Part shown: one piece after another, positions 3,615-35,451 of the stretch | Numbering within the stretch: the first letter of the stretch is position 1 | Layout: every line of letters starts with the position of its first letter | IMG/VR virus record: IMGVR_UViG_3300013093_000020 | DNA from: a virus | DNA length: 64,000 bases | Direction: 5' to 3' (one strand) | Program-made: the position numbers and the translations under genes | The notes under the pieces: model-generated | Told to the model about the DNA's origin: nothing | Databases searched by the model: none | What the model saw: only the letters and a program-made list of their open reading frames with translations

Positions 3615-3634
3615 TTTTTATTCCTTTGATATTA

Positions 3635-3641
3635 TATTTAT
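3635..3641 (-). promoter_or_regulatory. Late promoter (ATAAATA, T4 gp55-type)
   Basis: GATAAATA about 20 nt upstream of the ATG at 3614, in an intergenic gap. Confidence 0.65.
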
Positions 3642-3664
3642 CTTATCCTAAAACTTCATGTTTG

Positions 3665-6600: not shown

Positions 6601-9600
6601 GATTACATGGAACTAAGTTTGTAGTCGCCGTAACTGTGATCACATTAGGATATGTTACTGTGTTAATGACTACACTAGTTGCTGTTGCTGTTGCAGTAGT
6701 AGTTACTAATGCTGTACTAATAGTAAATTGTGTGCTACTAATAACATTATTAACATAGTACAGAGTTCCTGCAACTACACCGCCCAGTGTATTTCCTGTA
6801 AACTGAATGGGCATGTTTGGAGACATGTTAGTAGTTGATCCGACCATATAACCTGTGTTAGATGGGTAGTTCAAACTCATATTACCTACCGCAGTGTATA
6901 ATGATAAAATAGATCCGCTCTGTGTTGCACTAACTTGAATAGTATTATTGTCAAGAATATTACTAATATAATATGTGTAACCGCTTACTAACCCACCGAA
7001 TATGCCGCCGGCAGTGACAGTTAAAATACCAGATCCATTAGTTAATGCTAGAGTGGCACCGCCTACATATTGGCCAATAGTAATTGTTCCGCCTACACCC
7101 GGAGTTGGTATTGATAGAACATAGTATGTATTGCCTGCAACAATATTACCGAAAGCAGTACCGTTAAACACTATCGGCATACCTATTGTTATGCCAGCAG
7201 TGTTTGATAGCGTAACAAGATTACCTGCCGCAGATGTTTGTGTAGCACTAGTTGTGTAGGTAAATGCGTTACTAAATGTAATTGCCATACCAGTTGATAA
7301 CACACTAGTACCTGAAGTATAAATTGTGTTTATTTGCCCACCAGTTGTAGCTGTAACTGTAACCGTGGCTTGTGATGTTTGTGTCACTATTGAGTTATAG
7401 TAATTTGGCACAAATTGAATTGGCTGATTAACGTATAGAGTGTTAACATCTGCACTAGGATCTAGGCTAAACGCATTTGTTGCCGAACTTGAAGCATTAA
7501 TTAACACCGGAGCAAATGATTCTTTTAAGACTGTTGTATATTTGTTGCTGGCATTATATGATGATATAAATCCGTATTGGCCAACACCGGTACCGCTATT
7601 GATAAAAATTCTCATACCAATATAGTTAGTGGCAGAGTTAACATCAGATTGCGCCAAAGTAATATAACCAGTAGAACTACTGCCACCTTGTGCATTGTTA
7701 CTTGCTGTTAAATAACCAAGACCGCCGACTCCATTGCCGTTGTCTATCATTCGTGTTTGGAAAACACTATTTGAACGAATTTCATCGCCAACGGTTTGAA
7801 CACCAGTACCACTAGAATTGATAATATAATCAGCATAGGCAGTATATAATCCAGAAGTATTAGTTAGATAGAAGCCAAGTGATGCTGATCTTTCTAATTG
7901 TGCTCCGTAGACATAGGTATTACCAATTGTGCCAAAGCGAGTTCTTGGATATATCCTATATTGCAAGTTTGTATTTTGTGCAGTGGTATCGTATACTGAG
8001 AACCAAATTCTATACCAACCATTTTGTAACGTGTTTACACCATACTGTGTTGGTAATAATCCGCTACCATCTTGACTTGACGGAATAAGAGTAGCTGTGC
8101 TAAAATTAAATGTTACTGCACTTGCTCGTGTACTTGTGCCTGTAAAGAACGCATATAAATCAATTGCAGAAGCAGTACCTTGTTTAACATGTAAACTTAA
8201 AATATATGGTTGGTTAGATCCTGCAGGAACAGTGCCTGCACTACTAATACCAGACGGTGTTGAAATAGCACTACCTGTTAGATTAGTAACTGTAATAGTT
8301 AAATCGTTAGTGACGTTAACACCGCCTAACTGGCTTCCATAAATTTTGATTTGGTTACCCACAACATACCCGCTACCGCCACTGGCCACTGTAACAGAAT
8401 ATGATGTTGCATTGATAGTGATATTAAACAATGCTCCTGCACCGCTACCACTAATGTTTGATCCAGCGACGTTAGTAAAACTAGTTCCTTGCGGTGTTAC
8501 TGATACATTTTGATACAAGTAACTTGTGTCAGTACCGCCAGTGGCAGAAATAAATGTCCATGCATCGGCCAATGAGTCAGGACTTACTGTATTTTCAGTA
8601 AATGTTATATTACCGTCGTTGATCCAAGCACCGTTCTGAAAATTATTGCTATATTGCAACAAATTGGTCACGGCTGAAACATAGTTTTGACCGGCGTTAG
8701 TGTAAGTGTATTTCATTAGACCGTATGATCCAGCTGATGGGTATGTAAATGCTGGAATAACTGTAGCTGGTCCATATTGGTTATTAACTGTTGCACTGAT
8801 CGGAGTTTCGGTTGTGTCATACCCTTCAGCTACTAGTCCAAATGTACCGTATGAGCTGTTACCGTTTGTTGCACGAATTTTTCCGCCCGCTTCAGCAAAA
8901 TAACTTGTGTAAGCATAGTAAGAGAATACAGACACACATTCAGTAAGTGCTCCTGGTCCATAACACCAAATACCAATACCATCACTAATAACCTGTGTAA
9001 AGTCGTTTGAAACAATAGATTTATTCCCACCATTATGCAGTGTTCCGTCAATTTTACATCCAACGCTGCCTACACCAAATGTAGTGACGTTTTGTACATA
9101 AGGAGATCTACGGAAAATCCACGCTGTTGTATCACTTGGACCAGTGCCTGGATCTAACGCAACATAGGCATTACCTGTTGGTCGTTGAGTCGCATATTGA
9201 TTTTGTGCAGTTAATGTACCTAATTTTCCAACTAGACTCATATTGCGTAAGCCGCTGCCGTTTCTCATGCGGAACATGTCTACGATTGCATGCCCGCCGA
9301 TGGCTTGCATTAAACCATTACCTCCGGATAATGTTATCAATACAGATCCAGTTACTAATGATCCTTGTGTTTGTGATAGGTTAGACACTGACCCCACAGC
9401 GTATGCTAACCCATTAGGAGTAGTGCTTACTGTTATTGCTCCAGTAGCTGTTGTTAGTATGTAGTATACTGCTCCTGGAATAATATTTCCAAACCCAGTA
9501 TTAAATGCTATAGGTGCCCCGACTGTTAAACCAGCAGAACTAGTAACTGTTATGGTGCTGCCTAACGCTCCGGTTACTGTTATAGCCGGAGTACTAGAAC

Positions 9601-12526
9601 TACTAATAGCAAAATTTGATGAAGTTACTGTTGACCCTACAACATAATAAGTCTGTCCGGCTGTGATAGCAGATTCAAAAGCTGTCAGTGTTACTGGAAG
9701 ATTGTTATTAGTTGTTACAAATTGTATAGGGCATCCGTCATACAGCCCAGTAGTCGAACTAACGGTGAATAATTGTGTTGCCGCTGTAGAAATTGTTGTA
9801 TATGTATTATAAATTATCTTAGGTTGTACAACAACTCCGCGCAACTCGTCGCCAACTAATGCACAGTTTTCTGGAACTACAATTGGTAAAGATTCAGTAT
9901 AAGTTCCTGTTTTAACATAAATTGTTGAACTGATGCCAGAATTAGGAGTTGGTAAGTTTGTAGTGCTTTGTGATGCTAATGAATTGTAAATTAAATTAAA
10001 CAAAATATCAACATAAGTGTTGCCTGCACCGTTTGGGGCTAGTGGATTTGCTAAAGTTGTTTGTGATTCTACACCATTTAATCCCACTACTTGATTAATT
10101 CTTGATCCAGCAGCTATACCGTTTAATGCTTGATAGTTGTTTGCAGGTGCAGATTGATTGAGTACATTATTAATCAAACTATACATGTAGTTTAATGCAA
10201 TTACAAAATTAGGCATGTCTGCCGCAACTATAGTGCTAATAAAGGAATTTACACTACCAAAAGCAAAATAACTTTGTGCAGCTGCTACTGTTTGACTATT
10301 TCCACCTCGTGTAATATCATAAACAATAGCATCAATAATATATTCTGCATCTCGGATTGTTTCTGAAGGACCAACTGAGCTTGTATACCAAGTTCCATTA
10401 GTAACACCATTTAAATTATTGTTTAAAGAATATACAAGATAATTGTACATCTCAGTCACAATCCATAATTTATTTTTTGTTAAAATATTAGCAGTGTTTG
10501 GATATAATGTACCATTTAAAACATAGTTACATGCATAAGCAATAGATGCAAACGGTTGATCCCAGGTAGTACCATTAGTTAAGCTATTATCAACACCATT
10601 AGGTGCAACATAAAACACATTCTTTGTTTGGTTAATAGTCGACCATGTTGGTAATAGCACACCGGTAGCGCCAATAGTTGATCGCAATAGTTGTCCGGTA
10701 GTTCCTATTGGTAAGGCTGTGTTAGTAGGCGTAGTTGTTGATATATTGTAAGTTATATTACCTACAGTATTCAATGCATTGTGGCGAGCATGTAACACAT
10801 AAGGAATCCAGTATTGATTTGTAGTATCTTGATCTGGACGAGATTGTTTTGGTGAAGCTTGTATACAACGATATGTTGCATTTTGCCAAATAACTAAATC
10901 ACCTAGTAGATAGGTTGTTGTTGAATTCCAGAAACTTGCCCAATATGCTCCAGGGACGATTAAATTCCATGATGTTGAGTTAACTCCATAGAAATTAATA
11001 GTTTGGCCGTTAGTAAGTGCAGAATCAGGTGCTGAGCTTAATACTACTGTAGGAGTTCCAAATGTTCCATTGCCGGCAACCGTACCAGTAGCTGGATAAG
11101 TTAATATAACTGTTGATCCACTAATGCTTGCGACTTGTGATAAGCCATTTATGCCTGCGCCAATAACGCCTTGATTTACTGCTATGCCAGATGTACTACC
11201 TACGGTAATAGCGTTAGTACCAAAAGATACTAGACCGCTAACAGCAGATACAGTGTTTGCACTTAATGTAATTGTATTTGTTGCAATATTTTGTATAGTG
11301 GTTCCGCCAGCAATACCAGATGCGCTGACATTCATGCCTACTACTAGTCCGGCATTTGATGTTACTGTAATAGTCGGTGATCCGCTAGTGCCTGTTGCTG
11401 TGACTGTTACTGCGGCTGATGCAACCGTAGTAGTTACGGAACTTGCTAAACTAGCACTAATAATACTCTGGCCGCTGGCAAATCCGGAACCTATGGCAAT
11501 CATACCAGGAACTAGGGTATAGATACTTGATACAATTACTGTAGAACCAGAACTACCTGTTGAATTATATGTAACTGCTGATGAATAATTATTGGGATCT
11601 TGTGATGTGCTGTTGGCAATAGCAACATACAGTTCACCGTTTCTACGAACTACATCACCAATTTGATAACTAGTACCGCCAGTCCAATCTCCTGATGCTA
11701 GATACCCTTGGTTGAATAATGCCCAATCAGTGGCATCAGTATTTGGAATGTTGTTAGTATTATTATTAGTTAAACAGATATAGTCATAACCGCCATATTG
11801 TACAACGTCACCAGGTTGATATGCAGTACCTGAATTCCAAGTACCTAGATATTCTTCGCCTGGTAAGAATAAACTAAAATTACCAGCGGCCATTACTGGA
11901 CCTGATGTGTGCGCGATTGTACAAATGTATAAGTTAGCATCAACTTTTACAACATCTTGTACTTTGTACCTAAAAGAAGCTAGCCATGGTCCTTTGTAAT
12001 CAATACCTTGATTTAGAATAGTCCATGAACTTTGGTTGGCTTCAAGGCCAAGTGTTGCGCTAGCGGCAGAAGTATGGTTAGTGTTACAGACATAAACAAT
12101 ACCGCCATACTTGACAGCATCGCCAACACCGTAATTAGTATTTGGTAACCATGCAGTGTGCCAATTGGTAAATGTAGCCAGTGTTGTAAATTTAGAAAGA
12201 TCAAGAGTTGTTGAGCTTGTGTGATTAGCAGTACACACATACACAGCACCGCCATAGGTAACAATATTTCCTAGACTATAATAGGTACTTGGTGACCATG
12301 CGTTAGTCCAAGTTTTACCATCAAGAATTAAATTCCAATAAGGAGTGCTAGCACCGGCACCGGTTACATGATATAAATCTTGATAAAAATCTCCGCTAGT
12401 ATGTGGTACTAGGCAAACATACATTTTACCTTGATATGTAATGACTGCGTCTCTGTTATATGTAGTAGTAGTGGCCCACTGACCTGTGTAGTTGAATCGT
12501 AAACTACTAATTCTAAATTCTGGCAT
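3665..12526 (-). CDS. Giant virion adhesin/tail-fibre protein, 2953 aa (CBM5/12-like repeats, beta-helix-like region, repeated beta modules, BNR/Asp-box-like propeller)
   Basis: N-terminal W...Y..GD.V.Y.G..Y.C repeats; FYVAPNGVD and TIYVKTGTYTE.LPI.VP...LVGDELR motifs typical of pectin-lyase-fold starts; repeated GxxxGTxYYV modules; W..VAYGNG.FVAV...YS.DG.TW repeats. Confidence 0.85.
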   Translation of the reverse strand: MPEFRISSLRFNYTGQWATTTTYNRDAVITYQGKMYVCLVPHTSGDFYQDLYHVTGAGASTPYWNLILDGKTWTNAWSPSTYYSLGNIVTYGGAVYVCTANHTSSTTLDLSKFTTLATFTNWHTAWLPNTNYGVGDAVKYGGIVYVCNTNHTSAASATLGLEANQSSWTILNQGIDYKGPWLASFRYKVQDVVKVDANLYICTIAHTSGPVMAAGNFSLFLPGEEYLGTWNSGTAYQPGDVVQYGGYDYICLTNNNTNNIPNTDATDWALFNQGYLASGDWTGGTSYQIGDVVRRNGELYVAIANSTSQDPNNYSSAVTYNSTGSSGSTVIVSSIYTLVPGMIAIGSGFASGQSIISASLASSVTTTVASAAVTVTATGTSGSPTITVTSNAGLVVGMNVSASGIAGGTTIQNIATNTITLSANTVSAVSGLVSFGTNAITVGSTSGIAVNQGVIGAGINGLSQVASISGSTVILTYPATGTVAGNGTFGTPTVVLSSAPDSALTNGQTINFYGVNSTSWNLIVPGAYWASFWNSTTTYLLGDLVIWQNATYRCIQASPKQSRPDQDTTNQYWIPYVLHARHNALNTVGNITYNISTTTPTNTALPIGTTGQLLRSTIGATGVLLPTWSTINQTKNVFYVAPNGVDNSLTNGTTWDQPFASIAYACNYVLNGTLYPNTANILTKNKLWIVTEMYNYLVYSLNNNLNGVTNGTWYTSSVGPSETIRDAEYIIDAIVYDITRGGNSQTVAAAQSYFAFGSVNSFISTIVAADMPNFVIALNYMYSLINNVLNQSAPANNYQALNGIAAGSRINQVVGLNGVESQTTLANPLAPNGAGNTYVDILFNLIYNSLASQSTTNLPTPNSGISSTIYVKTGTYTESLPIVVPENCALVGDELRGVVVQPKIIYNTYTTISTAATQLFTVSSTTGLYDGCPIQFVTTNNNLPVTLTAFESAITAGQTYYVVGSTVTSSNFAISSSSTPAITVTGALGSTITVTSSAGLTVGAPIAFNTGFGNIIPGAVYYILTTATGAITVSTTPNGLAYAVGSVSNLSQTQGSLVTGSVLITLSGGNGLMQAIGGHAIVDMFRMRNGSGLRNMSLVGKLGTLTAQNQYATQRPTGNAYVALDPGTGPSDTTAWIFRRSPYVQNVTTFGVGSVGCKIDGTLHNGGNKSIVSNDFTQVISDGIGIWCYGPGALTECVSVFSYYAYTSYFAEAGGKIRATNGNSSYGTFGLVAEGYDTTETPISATVNNQYGPATVIPAFTYPSAGSYGLMKYTYTNAGQNYVSAVTNLLQYSNNFQNGAWINDGNITFTENTVSPDSLADAWTFISATGGTDTSYLYQNVSVTPQGTSFTNVAGSNISGSGAGALFNITINATSYSVTVASGGSGYVVGNQIKIYGSQLGGVNVTNDLTITVTNLTGSAISTPSGISSAGTVPAGSNQPYILSLHVKQGTASAIDLYAFFTGTSTRASAVTFNFSTATLIPSSQDGSGLLPTQYGVNTLQNGWYRIWFSVYDTTAQNTNLQYRIYPRTRFGTIGNTYVYGAQLERSASLGFYLTNTSGLYTAYADYIINSSGTGVQTVGDEIRSNSVFQTRMIDNGNGVGGLGYLTASNNAQGGSSSTGYITLAQSDVNSATNYIGMRIFINSGTGVGQYGFISSYNASNKYTTVLKESFAPVLINASSSATNAFSLDPSADVNTLYVNQPIQFVPNYYNSIVTQTSQATVTVTATTGGQINTIYTSGTSVLSTGMAITFSNAFTYTTSATQTSAAGNLVTLSNTAGITIGMPIVFNGTAFGNIVAGNTYYVLSIPTPGVGGTITIGQYVGGATLALTNGSGILTVTAGGIFGGLVSGYTYYISNILDNNTIQVSATQSGSILSLYTAVGNMSLNYPSNTGYMVGSTTNMSPNMPIQFTGNTLGGVVAGTLYYVNNVISSTQFTISTALVTTTATATATSVVINTVTYPNVITVTATTNLVPCNPIVFSGTTFGSVVAGTTYYIANIPDTYHIQLATSLINTTATSTAAITNLITVTSTTGFIAGNPIFFTGNSFGGLVSETQYYILAINNATTFTISNTVGGSAVALSTATGYMTIRTAPTTFTLTAVGSGSMTLTSTTAKKSLTSGYGSMSTLFQTPLFGGVTQGTTYYVLAINAGSTNTFTITATSNGVSAVTLASSTGSMQMGQVGWDHVIAGTPPVSVFDTSTIYYIEPRLTYSQPAFTQTYLTLPSQSAGAGYTAIAYGANYFIAVPAGGSTIIGSSDGNNWSSITIPFSAAWTGVAYGQGTWVIISTGGTSIPGSFVISSNSSGQSWKTAYLPSISTWTNIVYGNGTFVAIASGTSNVAYSTSYGSTWSSGSGLPNTTWTGLAYGANKWVAVASGGTQSAYSINNGASWTSGTLPVSTAWSSVAYGNGRFVAVSSTSATPAYSFDGITWYTSTYSITATSITYGQGVFTAVNSGNATCYTSEDGNFWKIRTGVAITSAATAFGFTGTAYVTGYNIGVAGSGYLTAPTLTFSGGGATVQATATCTILNGGIAAVTIITPGSGYTSTPTITVSAPPSGGTTAVVTAVMNTVPYTGIFVTVGGTGGVNSGSITSAGAQTKGRPNISAGTMATVYEFEPGSGYTSTPTLSIFDPNNTSTAPYALRTANGVLATPTFVSNGAGYTVSGTSIAVNGSGSADQYQNNYNLYINNLSNLPRPGDDLVISNNSTIYKVTSATGLYGTTAPNFTALLTISPSMSTLLAPSTGTALIIREKYSQVRATNHDFLNIGYGDQYQSNYPGVPVPGTTLLSPQNQTIENNYGRVFYTSTDQDGNFKVGNLFGVQQATGTVTISASQFGLQGLNQLTLGGISVGGSSVIITQFSTDGTFVANSDNILSTQKAVKTYLAARLSQGGSNTFTGNTTAGTVTIGGPNIIGSTVVAGTPGSSVKIPVTVHMQGPYAGVDGGMMAQAFFIKNFAHR

Positions 12527-18214: not shown

Positions 18215-19213
18215 TTATACAGTTACACTAGGTTGGATATATACACCGGCTGGTGCAATAACCTTCCATGGAGCAGTTTGACCTGTTGTATATGTCCAAG
18301 GACCTGATCCGTATTGTGTGACTACTGCTCTACGAGCAGTTAGTTTTGTAATATAATATGTACCACCACCTGCATCACTAGCTGTTAAATTCATTTGACC
18401 TGCTGCCAATGAACCTGTAGCAACTGCAACCAATTTACATTGTCCAATGTATTGACCGGTGGCACCAGTCTTAACTAGATAACGATGACTTGATTCTTGT
18501 TTGATAATGTCATACTCTTGTGCGCTTCCTGAACCGGCGACATAGGCAAAACCAACTAATGATGGGCCAACTGGGAATTGTTGTGAGCTATCGCCTGAGA
18601 AAGTTGTAGTCAATGTTGGAACATTTAGGCTAGGACTTGTACCACCTAGTGTAGCCCATGTCAATGTTGGTGCTGAGTTATAACCACTACCTGCTGTTGT
18701 TACAGCAATGCTCTTAACACGGAATTTAACTGTGGCTTGTGCGTTAGAACCGCCAGCGCCTTGGATGCCCCAAGTAGTGATACCAGTTCCGTCAATGCTT
18801 GTAAATTCACCGCGACTTGTAATGTTGATAGCAGACACATTACCAGAACCGTTTGTGTTTATAGTAAGAACTGGGGTTACACTTGCTTGACCATACAATC
18901 CAACTAGAGCTGTAACAGCTGCACCTGTTTGATTAATTGTATAACCTGTATTTGTTCCACCGACAGTGATGGATTCAATTTCCCATGTAACCGCTAATAC
19001 CGCTGTTACACCAGTTGGCTCATCCGGAGCTGCAACTGTCAATGTTGGAAAATGTTTGTATGTATCGTTAATATTGATACTACCGCGACCTGCATCTGGC
19101 TGGCTAACGCTGGCAATTCCTTCGCCACCGATACCGCTGTTTACACCGATTTGACCATATGTCTCACCGGCATTTTTATTACCGAAAAATCTTTTCTTAA
19201 TTGGGCGTCCCAT
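18215..19213 (-). CDS. Virion protein downstream of the major capsid gene (possible head decoration/fibre), 332 aa
   Basis: Strong AAGGAG SD and its own late promoter; GSGY..APT modules. Confidence 0.7.
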   Translation of the reverse strand: MGRPIKKRFFGNKNAGETYGQIGVNSGIGGEGIASVSQPDAGRGSININDTYKHFPTLTVAAPDEPTGVTAVLAVTWEIESITVGGTNTGYTINQTGAAVTALVGLYGQASVTPVLTINTNGSGNVSAINITSRGEFTSIDGTGITTWGIQGAGGSNAQATVKFRVKSIAVTTAGSGYNSAPTLTWATLGGTSPSLNVPTLTTTFSGDSSQQFPVGPSLVGFAYVAGSGSAQEYDIIKQESSHRYLVKTGATGQYIGQCKLVAVATGSLAAGQMNLTASDAGGGTYYITKLTARRAVVTQYGSGPWTYTTGQTAPWKVIAPAGVYIQPSVTV

Positions 19214-19236
19214 TTTGTTTCTCCTTAGTTGATTTG

Positions 19237-19300
19237 TGTCTAGCGTTCTAGGCTATACGCGGTTGGGGTTCCGCATAAACTCACCCTATGTGAGCGGACA
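19237..19300 (-). ncRNA. Candidate cloverleaf/four-way-junction leader RNA
   Basis: P1 UGUC/GACA enclosing GCUCAC/GUGAGU, UAUGCGG/CCGCGUA and UAGC/GCUA, with 0-1 nt linkers. Confidence 0.5.
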
Positions 19301-29676: not shown

Positions 29677-30572
29677 TTTTTATCCCAGCCGTGGAATTCC
29701 ATGTGCCCAGCATCTGATTTTTCATCAGATGAAGATGACGAACTGCTGCTGTTTGATTGAGATTTAGGTACAGGTACAGGCACGGGCTCCGGGGTCGAAG
29801 ACTTTGCGGCTTCTTTCTGACTGGAGATCCAACTTAGGACCTGTCCTGGTAAAGGGTCTAACATGGCTTGATTGTTATCTGCCAGTTTGTCAACTTGTAG
29901 CGCATACCATTCACCAAATTTAGTCACTGTGTCCCAGAAAGCAGGATTACGATTTAGTTCTCCTCCAACCTTCATATCAGCATAAGTGCCGCACCATCCA
30001 GCTACTACATCTCTTACTCCGTCACTGTTGGCGATCCTTGATCCGATATAGTCAGGTACAGCACGGGGAATAAACCCTAGACCAAATTGGCGTAGTGCTC
30101 CTTTGAGCAGGCCACGACTGGCCATACCTGCTGCTAAATTACCTACTAGTTCAGCCAGTAAATGTTGGCGATTGGCAGTAAACTGCTCCTGTGTCATGCC
30201 ATTCTCATGATTGTCAAGCTGTCGCTTGAACATGGCATCTGCATTGATAAAATTTGTAATAGGTTGAAGTACTTCGGGTAGTACTACTAGATATCTAATA
30301 GCTAGATTTACACTCTTAACAGCTACAGATGTAGTAAGTTTAGCTGCTCCAACTCCAGGAATACTGCTACCAGTACGAGATTTTCTTAATTCTTTTTCAC
30401 GACGCTTCAGTTCTGCTTCTCGAGCTGCTAGTTCTTTTTCTCGAAGTGCTGCTTCTCTCGCAGCCAGTTTTTCAGCCGCAGTCATTTCTTTACCTGTAGT
30501 CTTTCCCCCAAACTTTAACCAGTCCAGTACGCCTTCATTTGTTTGTTCGCTGATAATATCTGTGATTTTCAT
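29673..30572 (-). CDS. Hypothetical protein, possible internal virion protein (start probably ATG 30572, MKITDIISEQ)
   Basis: ATGA overlap with the peptidase gene; late promoter GTAAATA at 30595-30601. Confidence 0.7.
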   Translation of the reverse strand: MKITDIISEQTNEGVLDWLKFGGKTTGKEMTAAEKLAAREAALREKELAAREAELKRREKELRKSRTGSSIPGVGAAKLTTSVAVKSVNLAIRYLVVLPEVLQPITNFINADAMFKRQLDNHENGMTQEQFTANRQHLLAELVGNLAAGMASRGLLKGALRQFGLGFIPRAVPDYIGSRIANSDGVRDVVAGWCGTYADMKVGGELNRNPAFWDTVTKFGEWYALQVDKLADNNQAMLDPLPGQVLSWISSQKEAAKSSTPEPVPVPVPKSQSNSSSSSSSSDEKSDAGHMEFHGWDKK

Positions 30573-30594
30573 ATTCAATTCCGAGAAGTTTACA

Positions 30595-30601
30595 TATTTA
30601 C
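30595..30601 (-). promoter_or_regulatory. Late promoter (GTAAATA)
   Basis: 22 nt upstream of ATG 30572. Confidence 0.6.
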
Positions 30602-30611
30602 CATTGTGTGG

Positions 30612-30692
30612 AGATGTACTGCGTACATCTGTTCTTCGCTTCCGCTCGAACTTGTCTTCTTATTAGAAAAGGCAATAAAACGCGAAGCGTTT
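30612..30692. repeat. Cluster of short inverted repeats with GNA-type loops
   Basis: AGATGTAC-GCA-GTACATCT (- strand, 30612-30630); GTTCGAGCGGAAGCGAAGAAC (-, 30631-30651); AAACGC-GAA-GCGTTT (+, 30678-30692). Confidence 0.75.
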
Positions 30693-31075
30693 AAGATATT
30701 ATCCAGATTGTTCAGTCACACTTTGCCCAGGCAGGGCAAAGGACATTATCCGAGTTGAACATGTCACTTAGCGTTAGGGCATTACAGAGGCGGTCATCCG
30801 GTACCTCGAGCCCCGTCTTTATACGACGGCAATCTGCTGACATACGCTAACACATCCGCAGATCCGTGGGTTTTCCCCACTCCTTTAGCCTTTTTAAAAA
30901 TTTACGGCAAGCATCAAACTAGTTGTATGAAGGCATATCTAGTCATCGTCCGGTCAAGGATAGTGATGCATGACCCTGCCGTCAAGCAAGGAATTTCCGT
31001 GACTGCGATCCGAGATCCAGCTGTAAGGGCACAAAATTACATCGCCAGTGCGGGCTTATTTGACGGTTTTAGAGC
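30690..31075 (-). ncRNA. Candidate large structured ncRNA downstream of the GIY-YIG gene
   Basis: Non-coding, with many nested stems and 2-3 possible pseudoknots (see findings). Confidence 0.6.
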
Positions 31076-31510
31076 CTAGTTTTCTTGGAGTTTACGAATG
31101 TGTGAACCATGTACACGCACTTGAATATGACCATTATAGTAGTCGTTTGATTCAAGAACTCTGCGTGAAAACTGTTCGCGGGCCTCAACATAGCTGCATT
31201 CTGCCTTGCTACGGCAATAAAAAAGTATCTCTCTACGGAAGTTTTCAACTCCTAGAGCTTGTACATCACGAGTTAATTCAGGTGACGATCCATAGTAATC
31301 TCGCCAGTCGGAATCAATTTTGCTTCTGATCTTCTTTTTCTTTTTGTTGCCGTTCTTTAATTTTACTGTTCGATATGTGGTCTTTGAGAATTTTGCCAGC
31401 TTTTTGCCTATATACATGCGCCCTGTTGAGATGTTAGTGATGATGTAGACGAAGCCCGCACAGTCGTCCGGGAGTTCTTCTACAGTTTGGGAATTGAAAA
31501 GCCATGTCAT
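31076..31510 (-). CDS. GIY-YIG family endonuclease, catalytic domain only, 144 aa
   Basis: GFVYIITNISTGRMYIGKK, YYGSS, FRREIL, conserved Glu (YVEAREQF), YYN. Confidence 0.85.
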   Translation of the reverse strand: MTWLFNSQTVEELPDDCAGFVYIITNISTGRMYIGKKLAKFSKTTYRTVKLKNGNKKKKKIRSKIDSDWRDYYGSSPELTRDVQALGVENFRREILFYCRSKAECSYVEAREQFSRRVLESNDYYNGHIQVRVHGSHIRKLQEN

Positions 31511-31515
31511 GACTT

Positions 31516-31779
31516 CTAATTATCATCATTGCCTTGTGCCTTGAGTTGTTTTTGAGCGAGCCTACGAGCTTTGGCCTGTTTCATGTCTTCGTTCTTCCAG
31601 TGACGCCATTCTTGTAGCACAATACGGCGTTCACTGCATAATCTGCGTATTTCACTCATAGCATTACGAGTGTCCATACATGCCCGTTTGGTCCCAGTGT
31701 TCATCCAACGCTGGTTAGCTTCGAAGTAAGTTCGAAATGCAGCCATTAACTGAGCATGTAATTCTTCATCCTGATGCAT
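31516..31779 (-). CDS. Small basic helical protein, possibly Hc1/histone-H1-like nucleoid protein
   Basis: GTKRACMDTRNAMSEIRRLCSERR resembles the GNKAA..RARK.L.E..K helix pair; basic tail. Confidence 0.5.
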   Translation of the reverse strand: MHQDEELHAQLMAAFRTYFEANQRWMNTGTKRACMDTRNAMSEIRRLCSERRIVLQEWRHWKNEDMKQAKARRLAQKQLKAQGNDDN

Positions 31780-33560
31780 TATTCTGTGACTTCTAGATCC
31801 GTGGCATATGATGTAAAGCCATTTTCTTTGATGACTTTGAGTACATTGTTAACACGACCTACAAGCTCGTCCCTGTGCGATATTAAGAACACATTCTTTT
31901 TGCGTTCTCGAGTCATCTTTTTCAGCACAGCCAGTGCAGATTCGACGCCTGAGCTGTCTAGTCCATTGTCTATGAGCTCGTCTACAAACAGCAAGTTTAC
32001 ATTTTGATATAGACTTTCCCACACATCGCGGAACGCCCAACTTAGTCCTAGGATCAAGCGATTGCGTTCACCACGCGATAAGTTGTCAAAGTCTAAATCC
32101 TGTCCTAGCTGTGTAATTATCACGGTCAAGTCATTTTGAAAAACTACAGTATGTGGTAGACCCATGCGATCTAGATAGTAAGTCAATCGGTTATTCAAGT
32201 AAGCTAGGTTCTGATCAATGATCTTCTTGCGTATAAATGAATCTTTAGACGTTAATAGCTTGAGCAAGAATTCTTGATGCTCCCGCATAGTGGTCAAACT
32301 GTTGATTTCATCAAAACTAATTGCCTGTATGGCTGTGTTGCGCAGTTCATCTATCTGTTCTTGATAAGGATCAGACTCGCCTGCACGGATAGTTAGATTA
32401 GTTTCTAGAGTGTTCAAGTTGTTCTGATGCTTGAGAGCCTGCTCAACAGTGTCATAGTAAGTGTCCGGACGGCCATTTAGCTCGCCAATGGCTGAAATTT
32501 CAGCTGTGAGCTTGGCGAGGTCCGCAGCGATCTTGTCTTGATACTGTTGTGATTCTGAGAGATGTTTCATGGCACCGGCAGTCATCTCCTCGTGTTTGTG
32601 ATCATGCAACTGTTGATCGCAAGCATGACACTTCTTATTACTGAGAGAGGCCAACTCTGCGGTATACTTTTTTACCGCTTTTTCCGCTTGCGCTAGCGCA
32701 GCGTCTAACGTCGCTCGTTCCTTATTCAGGCTTTTTAGCTTCTGCGAAGCTTCTTCGTAAACTTTTAGCTCCGCATGCTTCGCAAGCTCAGCTTCAATAT
32801 CTACGCTCTCTAGTTCTACAATCGCGCGGCCGATCTTTTCAAGATCTTGAGTTTGCTGTTGTCGCCATGCACTTTGTTTCGACAATAATCCATCAACACT
32901 TTTTTGAATATTATCATTTGACTTCTTAGTAGCTTCGATATCTGCATTTGCTTGGAATATAGCTTCTTTAGTTTGTCTGACTAGTTCTTTAAGTGCTTCT
33001 GCTTTTTCACTTAATAGTGTAATACCTAGTAATTGTTCAATGATTACTCGTTGATCATTGGCTTTCATACTTAAGAAAGGCTCATTGTATGTGTTAAGCG
33101 CAATGATGTGCTTGAACATGTCGTGACTCATACCTAGTAAATCATCTAGATCCTTTTGTGTCTCACGCATATCCCCTTGAGCATCATCGGTTTCGCCTGT
33201 ATCTTGTTCTTGATCATTGACAAAGAATTTTAATACATTAGGTTTGCGACCTCTTTCAATACGATAGCTAGCACCATCTTTTTCAAATGCCAGCGTAACT
33301 AGCATATTCTTATTATTGATCTTATTGATCAAGTTATCTTTTTTAATATTAGTGAGCGCATTACCAAATAAAGCATAACTCAGTGCATTGACAATAGTTG
33401 TTTTACCTGTGCCGTTGCGTTCTCCGCTATCGCCGCCGCCTTGATCTAGATTCTCTCCTAGCACGAGTGTTAGGTTTTCTTGATCTAAATCAACTGCTTG
33501 GGTACTATTACCCACGCTCATAAAGTTTTTAACTGTTAATTCTTTTAATTTGATTGTCAT
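31779..33560 (-). CDS. gp46: Recombination endonuclease ATPase subunit (gp46 / SbcC / Rad50)
   Basis: KNFMSVGN, Walker A NGTGKT, zinc hook CHAC, signature LSRGE, Walker B LLFVDE, ISH. Confidence 0.96.
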   Translation of the reverse strand: MTIKLKELTVKNFMSVGNSTQAVDLDQENLTLVLGENLDQGGGDSGERNGTGKTTIVNALSYALFGNALTNIKKDNLINKINNKNMLVTLAFEKDGASYRIERGRKPNVLKFFVNDQEQDTGETDDAQGDMRETQKDLDDLLGMSHDMFKHIIALNTYNEPFLSMKANDQRVIIEQLLGITLLSEKAEALKELVRQTKEAIFQANADIEATKKSNDNIQKSVDGLLSKQSAWRQQQTQDLEKIGRAIVELESVDIEAELAKHAELKVYEEASQKLKSLNKERATLDAALAQAEKAVKKYTAELASLSNKKCHACDQQLHDHKHEEMTAGAMKHLSESQQYQDKIAADLAKLTAEISAIGELNGRPDTYYDTVEQALKHQNNLNTLETNLTIRAGESDPYQEQIDELRNTAIQAISFDEINSLTTMREHQEFLLKLLTSKDSFIRKKIIDQNLAYLNNRLTYYLDRMGLPHTVVFQNDLTVIITQLGQDLDFDNLSRGERNRLILGLSWAFRDVWESLYQNVNLLFVDELIDNGLDSSGVESALAVLKKMTRERKKNVFLISHRDELVGRVNNVLKVIKENGFTSYATDLEVTE

Positions 33561-34570
33561 AGGCTGTTATAAATGGCTAATAGCATGTTTTTGTCAAAGG
33601 CATCTGATTCGATACTGACTAATTGATTGCTTACAATTTGATTTACTGATTCAAATGCTTGTATATCAATATCTGTACTAATCTCAAGTTGCTTTTTCTC
33701 AGCTATTAGTGTTAATTCTCGTATCTTGTACTTGGCCATAAAGTCTTCTTTGATAAAGCTGGCCTCTTCAAATGTAATATCAATGTCAAGCGCAACTCTT
33801 AAATGTTGATTAGGCTTAACAATAGTATCGGCTTCGTCAATTAATTGACTTAGTTTTACAGTACGGAATGTGGGTTGATTGGGCCAGCTAAAGTATTCAG
33901 GCTCTCCTCCCCATTCTAATACCATCATACCACGATCATCGTCCCACGCATCGGCATAATTGTGCGGAAATGCATTGCCGATATAGATCATATTCTCCTG
34001 CCGTTGGCGCTTATGAAAGTGCCCACTGAACCCTAGCTCATAGTTTTGAAAACTGTCAAGTTGTATCTCCCCATGATCTGGCATCTGGATCATGGCATTC
34101 ATAAAAAAGTTAGGCAATTCAAAGTGACCAAAGATATATTTGCCACCTTTCCTTCCTACAGTTTTCCATTCTTCACCAACGAGCCAGGGACACAGTGTGA
34201 CATTTCCAATAGTAGTAGGCTCATGTACCACAGTGACGCCAGGTATATACTTTCCAAACTCCACACTGTGTATGTCCCGTTTGTCTTTATAGTACAGATC
34301 ATGATTACCAGGAAAGAAATAGAAGTTATCAAACGCCTGCCCCAGCTTTTCCAAGGCCCTAAGGCTATAATCCATTGTAGTAATGTTAAGGCTATTGCGA
34401 TTATGATGCCAATCGCCCATAAAGATACCTGTATCACATCCTTCCTCCTTGGCTTTTGCAATAAACCAATCTACGAAATCTTCGCAGTCTTGATTGTGTA
34501 TTGATGAATTGCTCTTTAGACCGAAATGAATATCGGTAAAGCAGGCTACTTTTTTAAATAAATTACTCAC
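33557..34570 (-). CDS. gp47: Recombination endonuclease nuclease subunit (gp47 / SbcD / Mre11)
   Basis: TDIHFG, GDWHH, GNHD, GHF, SGHFH metallophosphoesterase motifs. Confidence 0.96.
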   Translation of the reverse strand: MSNLFKKVACFTDIHFGLKSNSSIHNQDCEDFVDWFIAKAKEEGCDTGIFMGDWHHNRNSLNITTMDYSLRALEKLGQAFDNFYFFPGNHDLYYKDKRDIHSVEFGKYIPGVTVVHEPTTIGNVTLCPWLVGEEWKTVGRKGGKYIFGHFELPNFFMNAMIQMPDHGEIQLDSFQNYELGFSGHFHKRQRQENMIYIGNAFPHNYADAWDDDRGMMVLEWGGEPEYFSWPNQPTFRTVKLSQLIDEADTIVKPNQHLRVALDIDITFEEASFIKEDFMAKYKIRELTLIAEKKQLEISTDIDIQAFESVNQIVSNQLVSIESDAFDKNMLLAIYNSL

Positions 34571-35402
34571 TTGATTCCTCGTTGTGTCTTTTTAGTGCCG
34601 CTTCGTGCTCGCCAGCACCAGTTCTACTATAGCTAGGATTCATTCCATTCATTTCTAAAATATCATCACGGATATTTTGATTGCGTTTTTCGATATTAAT
34701 AACACGAACAAAACTATTAGTAACAGCCGCAGTAAAATATGCGAAAGGATTGTCTGATTTACTTTCGTCAAATTGTAATCCAATTTGTGTTAACTGCAAA
34801 ATGGCCTGTCCTTTCATTTCATCATTGTAAGTATATCCGCGAACATTACCACGGGTAGCATATCTCTCACATAACTTTAACATCATTCTAGCTAAAGTTG
34901 GAGTAATTTGACCTGCATCTTTGTCAAATTTGCCCTTTTCGATGCTACCCTTCCAATGACTTTTACCAACGCATACTAATTCATCTTTGTCATTGAATTT
35001 CCAATGCTGGAATGGAGGAAAGTTAACCTTGTCTCTATGATCAGCAAGACTTTTTGGATTCTTTTTACGAGTGTTATTGAGTGGAATATGATCAAATGTC
35101 ATGATCCTAAACACTAAATCAGTTTTAGCTATTTTTTTATAATCAACTTCGCAATCTGCTTGCTTGACTTTTTCTCCAGCAGCTTTTCGCCTCTGGTAAT
35201 CTTGTTCACCTAATCGCTTGGCTTGATTGCGTTTGGCTTCGGCTATAGTTCGGATATTAATTTTATCTAGATTAGGCAAAATAATATCATACTGATGGTA
35301 CTTTGGATCAATAAAACTGCAATACGAAGTTTTTGATCTATGTATTTCTAACAACATATCCTTGTTGTTTAGGTAATTTACTTTGGCTGGTATTGTTATC
35401 AT
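34563..35402 (-). CDS. gp55: Late-transcription sigma factor (gp55-like) with a large insertion
   Basis: YLNNKDML; RGYTYNDEM; FDESKSDNPFAYFT...NSFVRVINIEKRNQ; adjacent to gp47 as in T4-like phages. Confidence 0.88.
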   Translation of the reverse strand: MITIPAKVNYLNNKDMLLEIHRSKTSYCSFIDPKYHQYDIILPNLDKINIRTIAEAKRNQAKRLGEQDYQRRKAAGEKVKQADCEVDYKKIAKTDLVFRIMTFDHIPLNNTRKKNPKSLADHRDKVNFPPFQHWKFNDKDELVCVGKSHWKGSIEKGKFDKDAGQITPTLARMMLKLCERYATRGNVRGYTYNDEMKGQAILQLTQIGLQFDESKSDNPFAYFTAAVTNSFVRVINIEKRNQNIRDDILEMNGMNPSYSRTGAGEHEAALKRHNEESSE

Positions 35403-35422: not shown

Positions 35423-35451
35423 ATTATAAACTACGCACTTTATTTTGTCAA
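35423..35451 (-). promoter_or_regulatory. Consensus sigma70 early promoter TTGACA-N17-TATAAT for the gp55-gp47-gp46 operon
   Basis: Minus strand reads TTGACA aaataaagtgcgtagtt TATAAT; -35 at 35446-35451, -10 at 35423-35428. Confidence 0.9.

What the first reader, a model, noticed from the sequence alone, without database searches (positions are those of the whole stretch)
30690..31510. Minimal GIY-YIG nuclease followed by a ~390-nt highly structured non-coding segment: candidate nuclease-ncRNA system
Seen in sequence: the genome is otherwise packed with short gaps, but the GIY-YIG stop (31076) is followed by ~500 nt with no credible ORF. On the gene's strand the segment has dense pairing potential. 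Elements are: an H-type pseudoknot GCAC/GUGC x UGUAA/UUACA (31022-31051); CCGUCAA/UUGACGG (31060-66 with 30979-85), which competes with ACGGCAGG..GCAUCA/UGAUGC.UUGCCGU (30964-82 with 30904-16); an ACUAG/CUAGU stem whose GCCUU loop could pair with a downstream AAGGC; GUGGG-GAAAA-CCCAC; an AUCUGC/GCAGAU stem whose loop UUAGCGU (30844-50) is a 7-bp complement of ACGCUAA (30768-74); CCGUC/GACGG; a nested GGGC/GAGG/CGG stem; CUUUGCCC/GGGCAAAG closed by UGUUCA/UGAACA; and two GGAUAAU repeats. Established: Seg/I-TevI-type GIY-YIG homing endonucleases carry C-terminal DNA-binding domains. This 144-aa protein has only the catalytic module plus a very basic insert (KLKNGNKKKKKIRSK). Inference: the RNA is co-transcribed from the sigma70 promoter at 35423-35451 and may be a partner or guide for the nuclease, a replication-primer (R-loop) RNA, or an unrecognised large phage ncRNA. 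I could not match it by eye to RNase P, tmRNA or group I/II introns.
Basis: partly seen in the sequence, partly recalled or inferred. Interest (0 to 1): 0.82.

Follow-up and report, generated by a model that had tools for sequence, protein, structure and literature searches.

The report
Full-length Polynucleobacter-1 twin-box phage RNA
The gene-free stretch behind a small nuclease gene of this uncultured freshwater T4-like phage encodes a real, multiply knotted non-coding RNA of about 400-455 bases; its first third is the catalogued but unexplained Polynucleobacter-1 motif, the same RNA sits without any nuclease in mobile islands of Polynucleobacter chromosomes, and it is therefore an RNA gene in its own right rather than the nuclease's guide.

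Summary
Observation confirmed. The ORF at 31076-31510(-) is a catalytic-domain-only SegE-type GIY-YIG nuclease. It is followed by 497 ORF-free bases that fold into a conserved RNA.

Rfam RF01718 (Polynucleobacter-1, function unknown) matches 30908-31056(-) at 73.4 bits (cut-off 37). The conserved unit is about three times longer than the Rfam model. On 41 diverse relatives, a 112-pair, 22-helix model with four pseudoknots is 86.8% paired, against 72.3% in shuffles. 84 of its pairs show compensatory change.

The uncatalogued part carries two 7-nt boxes, at 30751-45 and 30704-698. They are identical in 94 of 94 relatives, across 8 variants. No partner was found.

The guide-RNA reading is not supported:
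- The GIY-YIG family is far wider than the RNA.
- All phage copies share one synteny (sbcD-sbcC-GIY-RNA).
- One relative carries a PD-(D/E)xK nuclease in the GIY-YIG slot.
- 21 homologous RNAs in Polynucleobacter chromosomes have no nuclease nearby. Each sits next to a DUF6641 gene in islands that carry a recombinase.

Function remains unknown. Earlier agents of this scan found this "twin-box RNA" many times on other DNA. What I add is the chromosomal DUF6641 context and the nuclease swap.

The parts
31076..31510 (-). Minimal SegE-type GIY-YIG nuclease, 144 aa: catalytic domain plus a Lys-rich beta-hairpin insert, with no DNA-binding tail. It is a fixed upstream neighbour of the RNA in this phage clade. 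It is probably a recombination or packaging nuclease, not a partner of the RNA.
   Evidence: Pfam PF19835, E 4.6e-33, residues 3-129. phrog_447. The positions Y22, Y33, G35, R93, E109 and N126 are invariant in alignments A2 and A4. AF2 model pLDDT 90, with a beta-hairpin at 40-66; the best meaningful PDB match is the I-TevI catalytic domain 1ln0 (probability 0.82, E 0.44).
30672..31066 (-). Core of the structured ncRNA, about 395 nt. It runs from the 5' pseudoknot strand CCGUCAA to the terminator-like hairpin and its U tract.
   Evidence: Conserved in about 150 related contigs. On A1: 112 pairs in 22 helices, 86.8% paired against 72.3% in shuffles (0 of 500 shuffles as high), covariation score 0.394 against 0.161. 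MI/APC on 94 representatives.
30908..31056 (-). 5' domain, equal to Rfam RF01718 (Polynucleobacter-1 RNA), full model 1-141.
   Evidence: cmscan 73.4 bits, gathering score 37, E 1e-13.
31029..31055 (-). H-type pseudoknot at the 5' end: GCC (31055-53) x GGC (31046-44), crossing GCACU (31051-47) x UGUGC (31033-29).
   Evidence: Helices 2 and 3 are 95% and 93% paired. GCC/GGC changes to GAC/GUC and to GUCC/GGAC in A1. MI pair 31055-31044. The chromosomal homologs show GGG/CCC changing to GAG/CUC.
30979..31066 (-). Pseudoknot of the 5' leader CCGUCAA (31066-60) with hairpin loop UUGACGG (30985-79). It is not part of the Rfam model.
   Evidence: Helix 1 is 81% paired, and 6 of 7 pairs have changes on both sides. 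MI 0.81-0.86. In the chromosomal copies CUACUG/CAGUAG changes to CUACCG/CGGUAG.
30768..30863 (-). Long hairpin 30863-52 x 30843-32. Its loop UUAGCGU (30850-44) pairs with ACGCUAA (30774-68), forming a pseudoknot.
   Evidence: Helix 12 is 93% paired with 12 of 12 pairs compensated. Helix 13 is 97% paired with 7 of 7 pairs compensated.
30777..30830 (-). Pseudoknotted core. GCCGUCGU (30830-23) pairs with AUGACCGC (30797-90) and crosses GGGC/GCCC (30813-10 x 30780-77) and GAG/CUC (30807-05 x 30789-87). It includes the near-invariant GGUACCGGAUGACCGCC.
   Evidence: Helix 14 is 100% paired, with C:G changing to U:A and A:U to G:C in 17 sequences each. Helix 15 is 96% paired with 4 of 4 pairs compensated.
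30742..30767 (-). Twin repeat 1 (GUGAC...CAACUC-GGAUAAU-GUC). The 7-nt box lies at 30751-30745.
   Evidence: The boxes are identical in 94 of 94 representatives, across 8 variants. MI with the same position of repeat 2 is up to 0.97: GG in 49 sequences, AA in 45, none mixed. At least 34 state changes on a tree built without these columns.
30695..30719 (-). Twin repeat 2 (GUGAC...CAAUCU-GGAUAAU-AUC). The 7-nt box lies at 30704-30698.
   Evidence: As for repeat 1. The flanks keep fixed transition differences from repeat 1 (CUC against UCU, G against A).
30721..30741 (-). Hairpin CUUUGCCC/GGGCAAAG between the two boxes.
   Evidence: Helix 18. MI pair 30738-30724 scores 0.83 with 6 pair types.
30672..30692 (-). 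Terminator-like hairpin AAACGC-UUC-GCGUUU followed by a U-rich tail. This is the likely 3' end of the core RNA.
   Evidence: Terminator scan. Helix 19 is 84% paired, with 4 pairs compensated.
30612..30651 (-). Two further conserved 3' hairpins. The first is GUUC-GA-GC-GGAA-GC-GAA-GAAC. The second is AGAUGUAC-GCA-GUACAUCU. They lie after a variable AT-rich spacer (30652-30671) and are also present in the chromosomal homologs.
   Evidence: Helices 20-22. nhmmer matches to this part in Polynucleobacter chromosomes.
30595..30602 (-). T4 late-promoter-like GGTAAATA (relatives have GATAAATA or TATAAATA) ahead of the downstream ORF. It separates that gene from the RNA.
   Evidence: Seen in alignment A1, columns 630-640. 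Comparison with the consensus TATAAATA is from my own knowledge.
31516..31779 (-). Small basic 87-aa ORF between sbcC and the GIY-YIG gene, conserved at 30-71% identity in the clade. No family assigned.
   Evidence: No similarity to DUF6641.

Best explanation
Shown. The gap encodes an autonomous, large, multiply pseudoknotted non-coding RNA on the minus strand. Its core spans about 31066-30672. Two more conserved hairpins extend it to about 30612. It is a full-length member of the family that Rfam models only in its first 141 positions (Polynucleobacter-1, RF01718).

Inferred, transcription. In the phage it lies at the 3' end of the gp55-gp47-gp46-orf87-GIY-YIG gene string. It is probably read through from that operon and ends at its own UUC-loop (UUCG-like) terminator. 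In Polynucleobacter chromosomes the homologous RNA is a separate unit, divergent from a DUF6641 gene.

Inferred, mechanism (about 35%). A rigid knotted scaffold displays two single-stranded, always-identical 7-nt boxes. Each box follows a GUGAC...CAAYYY leader and precedes a hairpin. This would let the RNA engage two copies of one sequence-specific partner that evolves as fast as the boxes. The partner could be a nucleic acid carrying the matching 7-mer or a dimeric protein. The RNA would then serve DNA replication, recombination or mobile-element conflict.

Inferred, the nuclease. The GIY-YIG protein is a conserved neighbour, most likely a junction or packaging nuclease of the recombination module, and not the RNA's effector.
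For: Family membership: RF01718 scores 73.4 bits against a cut-off of 37, over the full model. Weinberg 2010 placed the motif downstream of a phage-like gene family and noted a variable 3' half (PMC2864571 supplement).

Real RNA, and longer than the Rfam model: conservation covers about 460 nt. The 112-pair model is 86.8% paired against 72.3% in shuffles and about 40% in slid controls. 84 pairs show compensatory change (0 of 500 shuffles as high). Invariant G:U pairs fix the sense strand (columns 139-175).

Autonomy from the nuclease:
- RF01718 is found in 17 of 151 Polynucleobacter genomes, many on complete chromosomes.
- The chromosomal copies are colinear RNAs of about 520 nt with the same knots and twin boxes.
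- These copies have no GIY-YIG or sbcC within 6 kb, and share no protein with the phage.
- All 21 non-phage copies lie 150-350 nt from a divergent DUF6641 gene.
- Single-copy GIY-YIG homologs in 498 cultured phages; the three checked have no RF01718 match, and 29 of 30 MAG-borne homologs under 50% identity have no gap.
- In the L257 contig a PDDEXK_15 nuclease replaces the GIY-YIG gene in front of an intact RNA.
- In at least five contigs an ORF of 277-341 aa separates the gene from the RNA.

Twin boxes: identical in 94 of 94 phage representatives (8 variants) and in 16 of 20 chromosomal copies. There are at least 34 joint changes on the tree. The flanks keep fixed transition differences, which argues for selection rather than gene conversion.

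Ends: a terminator-like site at 30692-30678, followed by a late-promoter-like motif.
Against: - No transcript evidence: no RNA runs hold the sequence, so the ends and expression are inferred.
- The folding-energy z-score is only -1.55.
- No partner for the boxes was found, so the mechanism is conjecture. I looked inside the RNA, in 150 kb of the phage record, in 659 kb of flanks of 103 loci and in the islands.
- In phages the RNA follows a small nuclease gene in 73 of 73 informative loci (72 GIY-YIG, 1 PD-(D/E)xK). This leaves room for a functional tie.
- The phage record is only about 41% complete.
Confidence: 0.78

Rival explanations
1. Nuclease-RNA system. The RNA binds the adjacent DNA-binding-domain-less nuclease and gives it specificity through its variable boxes, or otherwise acts as its cofactor.
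For: - In the RNA-first search, 67 of 80 phage loci have the GIY-YIG gene directly upstream on the same strand, and 5 more have it behind an insert.
- The nuclease has no DNA-binding tail and carries a basic beta-hairpin.
- In L257 the slot holds another small nuclease, PDDEXK_15. So a small nuclease followed by the RNA is kept in all 73 informative phage loci.
- The boxes are single-stranded, fast-evolving and guide-like.
Against: - 21 chromosomal RNAs have no nuclease neighbour.
- The GIY-YIG family, with the same basic insert, is single-copy in 498 cultured phages; the three checked have no RF01718 match, and 29 of 30 MAG-borne homologs under 50% identity have no gap.
- Adjacency is confounded by clade-wide synteny.
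- ORFs are inserted between gene and RNA in several contigs.
- No target complementary to the boxes was found.
Confidence: 0.07
2. Replication-origin RNA. The transcript primes or licenses DNA replication (R-loop or ColE1 RNA II-like) of the phage and of the chromosomal islands.
For: - In the phage the RNA lies beside the recombination and replication genes gp46/gp47.
- The islands carry a clamp-loader-like AAA+ ATPase.
- In DUF6641 loci without the RNA, the same position holds a GCAAC iteron-like region.
- A variable AT-rich spacer follows the terminator.
Against: - Dense covariation, with G:U pairs and four pseudoknots, shows selection on a compact folded RNA. That works against a stable RNA-DNA hybrid.
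- No iterons or unwinding element in the phage locus.
- A terminator lies inside the unit.
- An earlier agent working on other DNA also found no support for an origin (e1-5683642, not re-tested here).
Confidence: 0.08
3. Large ribozyme. The fold catalyses its own release from the operon transcript or another RNA reaction.
For: - Its size, the four pseudoknots and the many invariant unpaired nucleotides (GGUACCGG..ACCGCC, CACUAUCC..GGACGA) resemble catalytic RNAs.
- In the phage the RNA starts only about 10 nt after a stop codon with no evident promoter, so it must be processed.
Against: - No match to any Rfam ribozyme or intron model, even at E up to 5.
- No conserved cleavage-site signature was identified.
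- The twin boxes are not explained by catalysis.
Confidence: 0.08
4. Cis-regulatory untranslated region of a flanking gene: a 3' UTR stabiliser of the operon or a 5' leader of the downstream late gene.
For: Weinberg 2010 scored the motif as possibly cis-regulatory. The RNA abuts the GIY-YIG stop codon.
Against: - The downstream gene is not conserved (0 of 113 loci share orf301). It is separated from the RNA by a terminator-like hairpin and a late-promoter-like motif.
- The upstream gene can be swapped or separated from the RNA.
- In chromosomes the RNA is divergent from its only constant neighbour.
Confidence: 0.04

Closest known systems
Polynucleobacter-1 RNA motif (Rfam RF01718; Weinberg et al. 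2010, Genome Biol 11:R31, PMC2864571)
   Same: The window's bases 30908-31056(-) match the whole 141-position model at twice the gathering score. The habitat is the same (fresh water, Polynucleobacter). The position behind a phage-like gene is the same. The function is likewise unknown.
   Different: The Rfam model covers only the first third. The real conserved unit is about 400-455 nt. It adds two pseudoknots involving the 5' domain, a pseudoknotted core, two identical 7-nt boxes, a terminator and two 3' hairpins. The 2010 paper found no copy in any purified phage. Here the RNA is in hundreds of uncultured T4-like phage contigs.
Large ornate bacterial and phage ncRNAs of unknown function (GOLLD, ROOL, HEARO, OLE, raiA)
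   Same: A size of hundreds of nucleotides, many covarying helices and pseudoknots, association with phages or mobile elements, and no known function. HEARO, from the same 2010 survey, later proved to be the guide RNA of IscB nucleases (from my own knowledge).
   Different: No sequence or model similarity. None of these is described with a pair of identical, co-changing boxes. Unlike HEARO and IscB, this RNA is not bound to one nuclease family.
I-TevI / Seg-type GIY-YIG homing endonucleases of T4 (Pfam PF19835 SegE_GIY-YIG)
   Same: The protein has the GIY-YIG catalytic domain with all the conserved residues. It is encoded in a T4-like phage.
   Different: - It lacks the linker and the C-terminal DNA-binding domain.
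- It carries a basic beta-hairpin.
- It is single-copy and vertically conserved across distant T4-like phages. That behaviour is that of a core gene, not a mobile homing gene.
T4 endonuclease VII (gp49) and its non-orthologous replacements (Petrov et al. 2010, PMC2993671)
   Same: - A small nuclease sits next to the recombination genes.
- The GIY-YIG slot is filled by a PDDEXK_15 / 'RusA-like resolvase' gene in one relative.
- No EndoVII family match was found in this record, Melnitz-3 or ACP17.
   Different: No resolvase activity has been shown. The assignment rests on context only.
P4 phage-plasmid RNA immunity (CI RNA seqB pairing with the two repeated boxes seqA and seqC; from my own knowledge)
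   Same: Two similar short boxes sit in one transcript of a mobile element, and their sequence sets specificity and changes between relatives.
   Different: In P4 the complementary box lies in the same region. Here no complementary box exists in the RNA, its flanks or the islands.

Membership tests
Rfam RF01718 Polynucleobacter-1 RNA | Covariance-model score at or above the curated gathering score, over the full model | tested here: met
   73.4 bits against 37, model positions 1-141, E 1.1e-13.
Rfam RF01718 Polynucleobacter-1 RNA | The family's helices are kept by compensatory change in relatives | tested here: met
   Helices 3, 6 and 8 are 93-100% paired with many both-side changes. Helices 4 and 5 are weaker (59-67%) because two structural variants are mixed in a MAFFT alignment.
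Rfam RF01718 Polynucleobacter-1 RNA | Lies downstream of a gene of family GOS11034, which resembles PSSM2_218 of cyanophage P-SSM2 (Weinberg 2010 supplement) | tested here: inconclusive
   The upstream GIY-YIG has homologs in 339 Synechococcus and 22 Prochlorococcus phage records. I did not check that PSSM2_218 is one of them. The chromosomal copies have no such gene.
GIY-YIG nuclease superfamily (SegE-type, PF19835) | Profile match above the cut-off, with conserved GIY/YIG tyrosines, Arg, Glu and Asn | tested here: met
   E 4.6e-33, 114.5 bits against 25. Y22, Y33, G35, R93, E109 and N126 are invariant.
GIY-YIG homing endonucleases (I-TevI, SegA-G) | A separate C-terminal DNA-binding region (zinc finger, NUMOD or HTH) joined by a linker | tested here: not met
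   Of 144 aa, the profile covers 3-129. The AF2 model shows one domain plus a beta-hairpin.
GIY-YIG homing endonucleases (I-TevI, SegA-G) | Sporadic, mobile distribution among related genomes | tested here: not met
   One place per record in 498 cultured phages. Present in nearly all clade members at a fixed position.
RNA-guided nuclease systems (IscB-HEARO/omegaRNA, TnpB-reRNA, Cas9-tracrRNA) | Obligate co-occurrence of the RNA with its nuclease across contexts | tested here: not met
   RNA without the nuclease in 21 chromosomal loci. Nuclease without the RNA in cultured phages and MAG contigs.
RNA-guided nuclease systems (IscB-HEARO/omegaRNA, TnpB-reRNA, Cas9-tracrRNA) | A variable guide segment complementary to a target | tested here: inconclusive
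   The variable 7-nt boxes exist, but no matching target was found in the phage record, the flanks or the islands. Host genomes and complete phage genomes were not searched.
Known large RNAs (group I/II introns, RNase P, tmRNA, 6S, GOLLD, ROOL, HEARO) | A match to the family's covariance model | tested here: not met
   cmscan of 30500-31200 at E up to 5 returns only RF01718 and two chance lncRNA fragments. No tRNA or tmRNA in the window.
Holliday-junction or branch-resolving nucleases (functional class of T4 gp49) | Structure-specific cleavage of branched DNA | not testable with these tools
   Context only: next to sbcCD, replaced by PDDEXK_15 / phrog_244 in L257, and no PF02945 match in this record, Melnitz-3 or ACP17.

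The most novel reading that the evidence does not exclude
The twin boxes are a programmable address. The knotted RNA presents two identical 7-nt guides that direct a DNA-cutting or DNA-rejoining enzyme lacking its own DNA-binding domain to two identical half-sites. In phages that enzyme would be the GIY-YIG or PD-(D/E)xK nuclease. In the Polynucleobacter islands it would be the 188-aa catalytic-domain-only tyrosine recombinase. This would be a new class of RNA-guided DNA enzyme whose protein component is interchangeable.
Probability: 0.04. Interest if true: 0.95.

Novelty: new member of a known kind. Interest (0 to 1): 0.58.

Why it matters
Polynucleobacter-1 has been an orphan Rfam entry since 2010. 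This locus and its roughly 150 relatives show that the catalogued motif is only the front third of one of the larger and more intricately knotted RNAs known from phages. The RNA is common in lake and marine T4-like phages, and it is shared with mobile islands of a cultivable host genus.

Its two always-identical, fast-changing boxes are a kind of covariation that ordinary RNA structure does not produce. They point to an unknown reader.

A cultured strain, Polynucleobacter QLW-P1DMWA-1, carries a chromosomal copy. This makes the question experimentally approachable. The result also warns against reading gene-RNA adjacency in one syntenic clade as evidence of a ribonucleoprotein system.

Tried and rejected
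- Nucleotide similarity of the locus (megablast) and of the gap (blastn) to cultured phages: no match.
- tRNA and tmRNA scan: none.
- Sequencing runs: no RNA holder listed, only DNA lake metagenomes.
- Internal Watson-Crick partner of the boxes: none by MI. A G:U-permissive complement near 30910 occurs in 29 of 94 sequences, but it is a promiscuous U/G-rich strand and is absent from the window.
- Box or box complement in the 150-kb phage record: not enriched, 11 and 10 copies against 13.8 and 12.7 for same-composition 7-mers. One 10-nt complement at window ~9325-9334 lies inside a 2953-aa ORF and is about what chance gives.
- Own-box complement in 659 kb of flanks of 103 loci: 42 against 37.3 for the other variants.
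- Box copies at island or cargo boundaries, and inverted repeats around the invertible block: nothing consistent.
- Tyrosine recombinase or DUF6641 in the phage record: none.
- DUF6641 fold: pLDDT 78, no PDB match with E below 0.1. No profile similarity to orf87 or to the GIY-YIG protein.
- PDB sequence search with the GIY-YIG protein: only a chance hit at E 0.18.
- Hammerhead, K-turn, CsrA-site, -10 promoter, micro-ORF (AUG in box 1 to UAA in box 2) and parallel homoduplex readings of the boxes or the 3' hairpin: considered by eye. They were dropped because the variants or the chromosomal copies break them, or because they cannot be tested here.
- Literature: no paper besides Weinberg 2010 treats RF01718. 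The 2023 viral csRNA survey excludes Rfam overlaps and motifs over 151 nt. One 2026 preprint on coevolutionary mining could not be opened.
Full report
WHAT IS THERE. The window is part of a 149,680-bp IMG/VR virus record that CheckV rates about 41% complete. On the minus strand it carries a run of T4-type genes: a gp55-like late sigma factor (34563-35402), SbcD/gp47 (33557-34570), SbcC/gp46 (31779-33560), a basic 87-aa ORF (31516-31779) and the 144-aa ORF in question (31076-31510).

The 144-aa ORF is a SegE-type GIY-YIG catalytic domain: PF19835, E 4.6e-33, residues 3-129. All catalytic residues are conserved. An AF2 model (pLDDT 90) shows a single domain in which the Lys-rich insert forms a long beta-hairpin. 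Its best meaningful PDB neighbour is the I-TevI catalytic domain, but the match is weak. The ORF is followed by 497 bases without a credible ORF.

A KNOWN FAMILY, BUT ONLY IN PART. Rfam's RF01718, Polynucleobacter-1 RNA, matches 30908-31056(-) over its whole model at 73.4 bits, against a gathering score of 37. Weinberg et al. 2010 described it from Lake Gatun reads and one Polynucleobacter genome. They reported that it lies downstream of a gene family resembling a cyanophage ORF, that its 3' half is variable, and that no purified phage carried it. Its function is unknown (PMC2864571). The flanks printed in their alignment already show conservation beyond the motif.

THE REAL UNIT IS LARGER. 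A protein-first scan of IMG/VR returned 80 loci with GIY-YIG homologs at 73-86% identity. Nearly all that reach far enough keep an ORF-free gap of 450-515 nt that is 70-80% identical to the window's over about 460 nt.

On 41 representatives with a mean identity of about 58% (alignment A1) I wrote a 112-pair, 22-helix model that includes four pseudoknots. The results:
- 86.8% of cells pair, against 72.3% in shuffles and about 40% when partners are slid.
- 84 pairs show change on both sides (0 of 500 shuffles as high).
- The covariation score is 0.394 against 0.161.

An independent MI/APC scan of 94 representatives finds the same helices. Folding energy alone is unremarkable, z = -1.55. Invariant G:U pairs place the RNA on the minus strand.

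Five do not: UGUAA/UUACA, ACGGCA/UGCCGU and local CCGUC/GACGG fail, CGG/CCG is uninformative, and UGUUCA/UGAACA is weak. The local CCGUC/GACGG hairpin is replaced by a covarying long-range helix, GCCGUCGU x AUGACCGC, which crosses the GGGC and GAG stems.

A terminator-like hairpin (30692-30678 plus a U tract) probably ends the core at about 395 nt. A variable AT-rich spacer follows, then two further conserved hairpins (30651-30612), and then a T4 late-promoter-like motif ahead of the next ORF.

TWIN BOXES. Each repeat has the form GUGAC, a linker, CAAYYY, a 7-nt box, RUC, then a hairpin.
- The boxes are identical in 94 of 94 representatives, although 8 variants exist: AGAUAAU, GGAUAAU, GGAUGAU, GGAUGAA, GCAUAAU, AGAUGAA, AGAUGAU and AGAUGAG.
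- The strongest mutual information of each box column is with the same column of the other box. For the first position, 49 sequences have G in both boxes, 45 have A in both, and none are mixed.
- On a tree built without these columns the box state changes at least 34 times. Recombination between phages may inflate this count. At least 7 double changes are needed in any case.
- The immediate flanks keep fixed transition differences (CUC against UCU, G against A). Selection, not gene conversion, therefore keeps the boxes equal.

I found no complementary partner inside the RNA, in the phage record, in 659 kb of flanks or in the chromosomal islands.

IS THE NUCLEASE ITS PARTNER? In an RNA-first scan using an 18-mer of the core, 67 of 80 loci have the GIY-YIG gene directly upstream and 5 more have it behind an insert of about 800 nt. 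But the whole order sbcD-sbcC-orf87-GIY-RNA is conserved in 116 of 120 loci with room. Adjacency therefore says no more than synteny does. Outside this clade the two components part:
- The protein is a single-copy gene in 498 cultured phages, including cyanophages, Melnitz, ACP17, phiM12-like and Stenotrophomonas phages. Melnitz-3, ACP17 and phiN3 have no RF01718 match, and the last two have no gap.
- MAG-borne homologs below about 50% identity that are not next to sbcC have gaps of 0-60 nt and no RNA.
- RF01718 occurs in 17 of 151 Polynucleobacter genomes, often on complete chromosomes, including the original NC_009379 site.

The chromosomal RNAs are colinear homologs of about 520 nt. They have the same leader-loop pseudoknot (CUACUG/CAGUAG changing to CUACCG/CGGUAG), the same H-type knot, the ACCGCC core, twin boxes of a different alphabet (AGCGAAA, AGAGAAA, GGAGAAA, AUCAAAA; identical in 16 of 20 copies) and the same two 3' hairpins. 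They have no GIY-YIG or sbcC within 6 kb. None of their neighbouring proteins has a homolog in the phage.

THE CHROMOSOMAL CONTEXT (as far as I can see from the earlier notes of this scan, this part is new). All 21 non-phage RF01718 hits lie 150-350 nt from a divergently oriented DUF6641 gene (cross-checked). Only the DUF6641-plus-RNA segment is conserved at nucleotide level across five islands.

Downstream of the RNA come, in order:
- variable cargo;
- a 188-aa tyrosine recombinase that consists of the catalytic domain only;
- two proteins of unknown family and a clamp-loader-like AAA+ ATPase. This three-gene block is inverted in two of the five islands.

A full-length integrase lies nearby in three of the five islands and a tRNA near two.

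DUF6641 is much commoner than the RNA: 78 of 151 genomes, about 155 copies. Most copies face a GCAAC iteron-like region and a 177-aa ORF instead. Four others face RF01718-negative variants of the RNA that still carry twin boxes. DUF6641 has no recognisable fold and is absent from the phage record.

WHAT THE NUCLEASE PROBABLY IS. In one phage contig (L257) the slot between orf87 and an intact RNA holds a PDDEXK_15 endonuclease (PF24608, E 5.6e-30; phrog_244, 'RusA-like Holliday junction resolvase') instead of the GIY-YIG gene. No EndoVII family member is found in this record, Melnitz-3 or ACP17. T4 relatives are known to replace or lack gp49 (PMC2993671). I therefore infer, from context only, that the minimal GIY-YIG protein is a branch-resolving or packaging nuclease of the gp46/47 module.

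The swap can also be read the other way, as showing that a small nuclease in front of the RNA is what selection keeps.

VERDICT. This is a real, large, multiply knotted RNA gene and a full-length member of an orphan Rfam family. It is not the nuclease's guide on present evidence, and its function is unknown. Earlier agents of this scan reached the same core reading on other genomes under the name 'twin-box RNA'. I reached it independently before reading their notes and adopt their name for it.

My best mechanistic guess, at about 35%, is a scaffold that shows two identical short single strands to two copies of one fast-evolving partner. Rival readings are an origin RNA, a ribozyme, a cis-regulatory UTR and a nuclease cofactor, each held at 4-8%.

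Noticed in passing
window 19211-19295 (-): Rfam RF02980 freshwater-2 RNA (cis-regulatory) at 69.9 bits, against a cut-off of 49.9. It ends in AAGGAG...AUG, that is, directly in front of a gene start.
   Followed up: no
L257:915-1481 (the IMG/VR contig also held as L127): In this relative the GIY-YIG gene is replaced, at the same slot between orf87 and the RNA, by a 188-aa PDDEXK_15 endonuclease (PF24608, E 5.6e-30; phrog_244, 'RusA-like Holliday junction resolvase').
   Followed up: partly
L277, L278, L279, L280, L281 (Polynucleobacter chromosomes): The islands that hold the RNA share a 188-aa catalytic-domain-only tyrosine recombinase. Next to it is a block of three genes (293 aa, 260 aa and a clamp-loader-like AAA+ ATPase). 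The block is inverted in L278 and L280 relative to the other three islands, so it may be an invertible segment. No flanking inverted repeats were identified.
   Followed up: partly
L289, L291, L296, L299, L310, L311 (Polynucleobacter): Most DUF6641 genes face a region of about 350 bp with 5-8 GCAAC/GTTGC iteron-like repeats and a 177-aa ORF of no known family. In L289, the one locus annotated, an integrase lies downstream of DUF6641. DUF6641 reaches 6 copies per genome.
   Followed up: partly
L008, L045, L060, L066, L076 (about 2926-3950 in each): In the four where the RNA was located (L008, L045, L066, L076), ORFs of 278-341 aa with no Pfam or PHROG family sit between the GIY-YIG gene and the RNA. 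L060 has a 277-aa ORF directly after the GIY-YIG gene, and no RNA was detected in that locus. Four other loci carry inserts of about 800 nt.
   Followed up: partly
window 3665-12526 (-): One open reading frame of 2953 aa. It was not examined.
   Followed up: no
window 30699-30746 (-): A 15-codon frame runs from the AUG formed by box 1 plus its fixed G to the UAA inside box 2. The GGAUGAA variants keep an AUG-to-UGA frame. The chromosomal copies have no such frame, so this is probably chance.
   Followed up: partly
G000, Melnitz-3 (MZ577098), ACP17 (NC_041997): No endonuclease VII (PF02945) match in these GIY-YIG-bearing T4-like phages. phiN3 has only a sub-threshold hit.
   Followed up: partly
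L210, L214, L217, L221-L223: These MAG-binned phage contigs (L222 and L223 are from a Tara Red Sea marine MAG) keep the 3' part of the RNA behind the GIY-YIG gene but have no RF01718 match. The 5' domain is therefore exchangeable.
   Followed up: no
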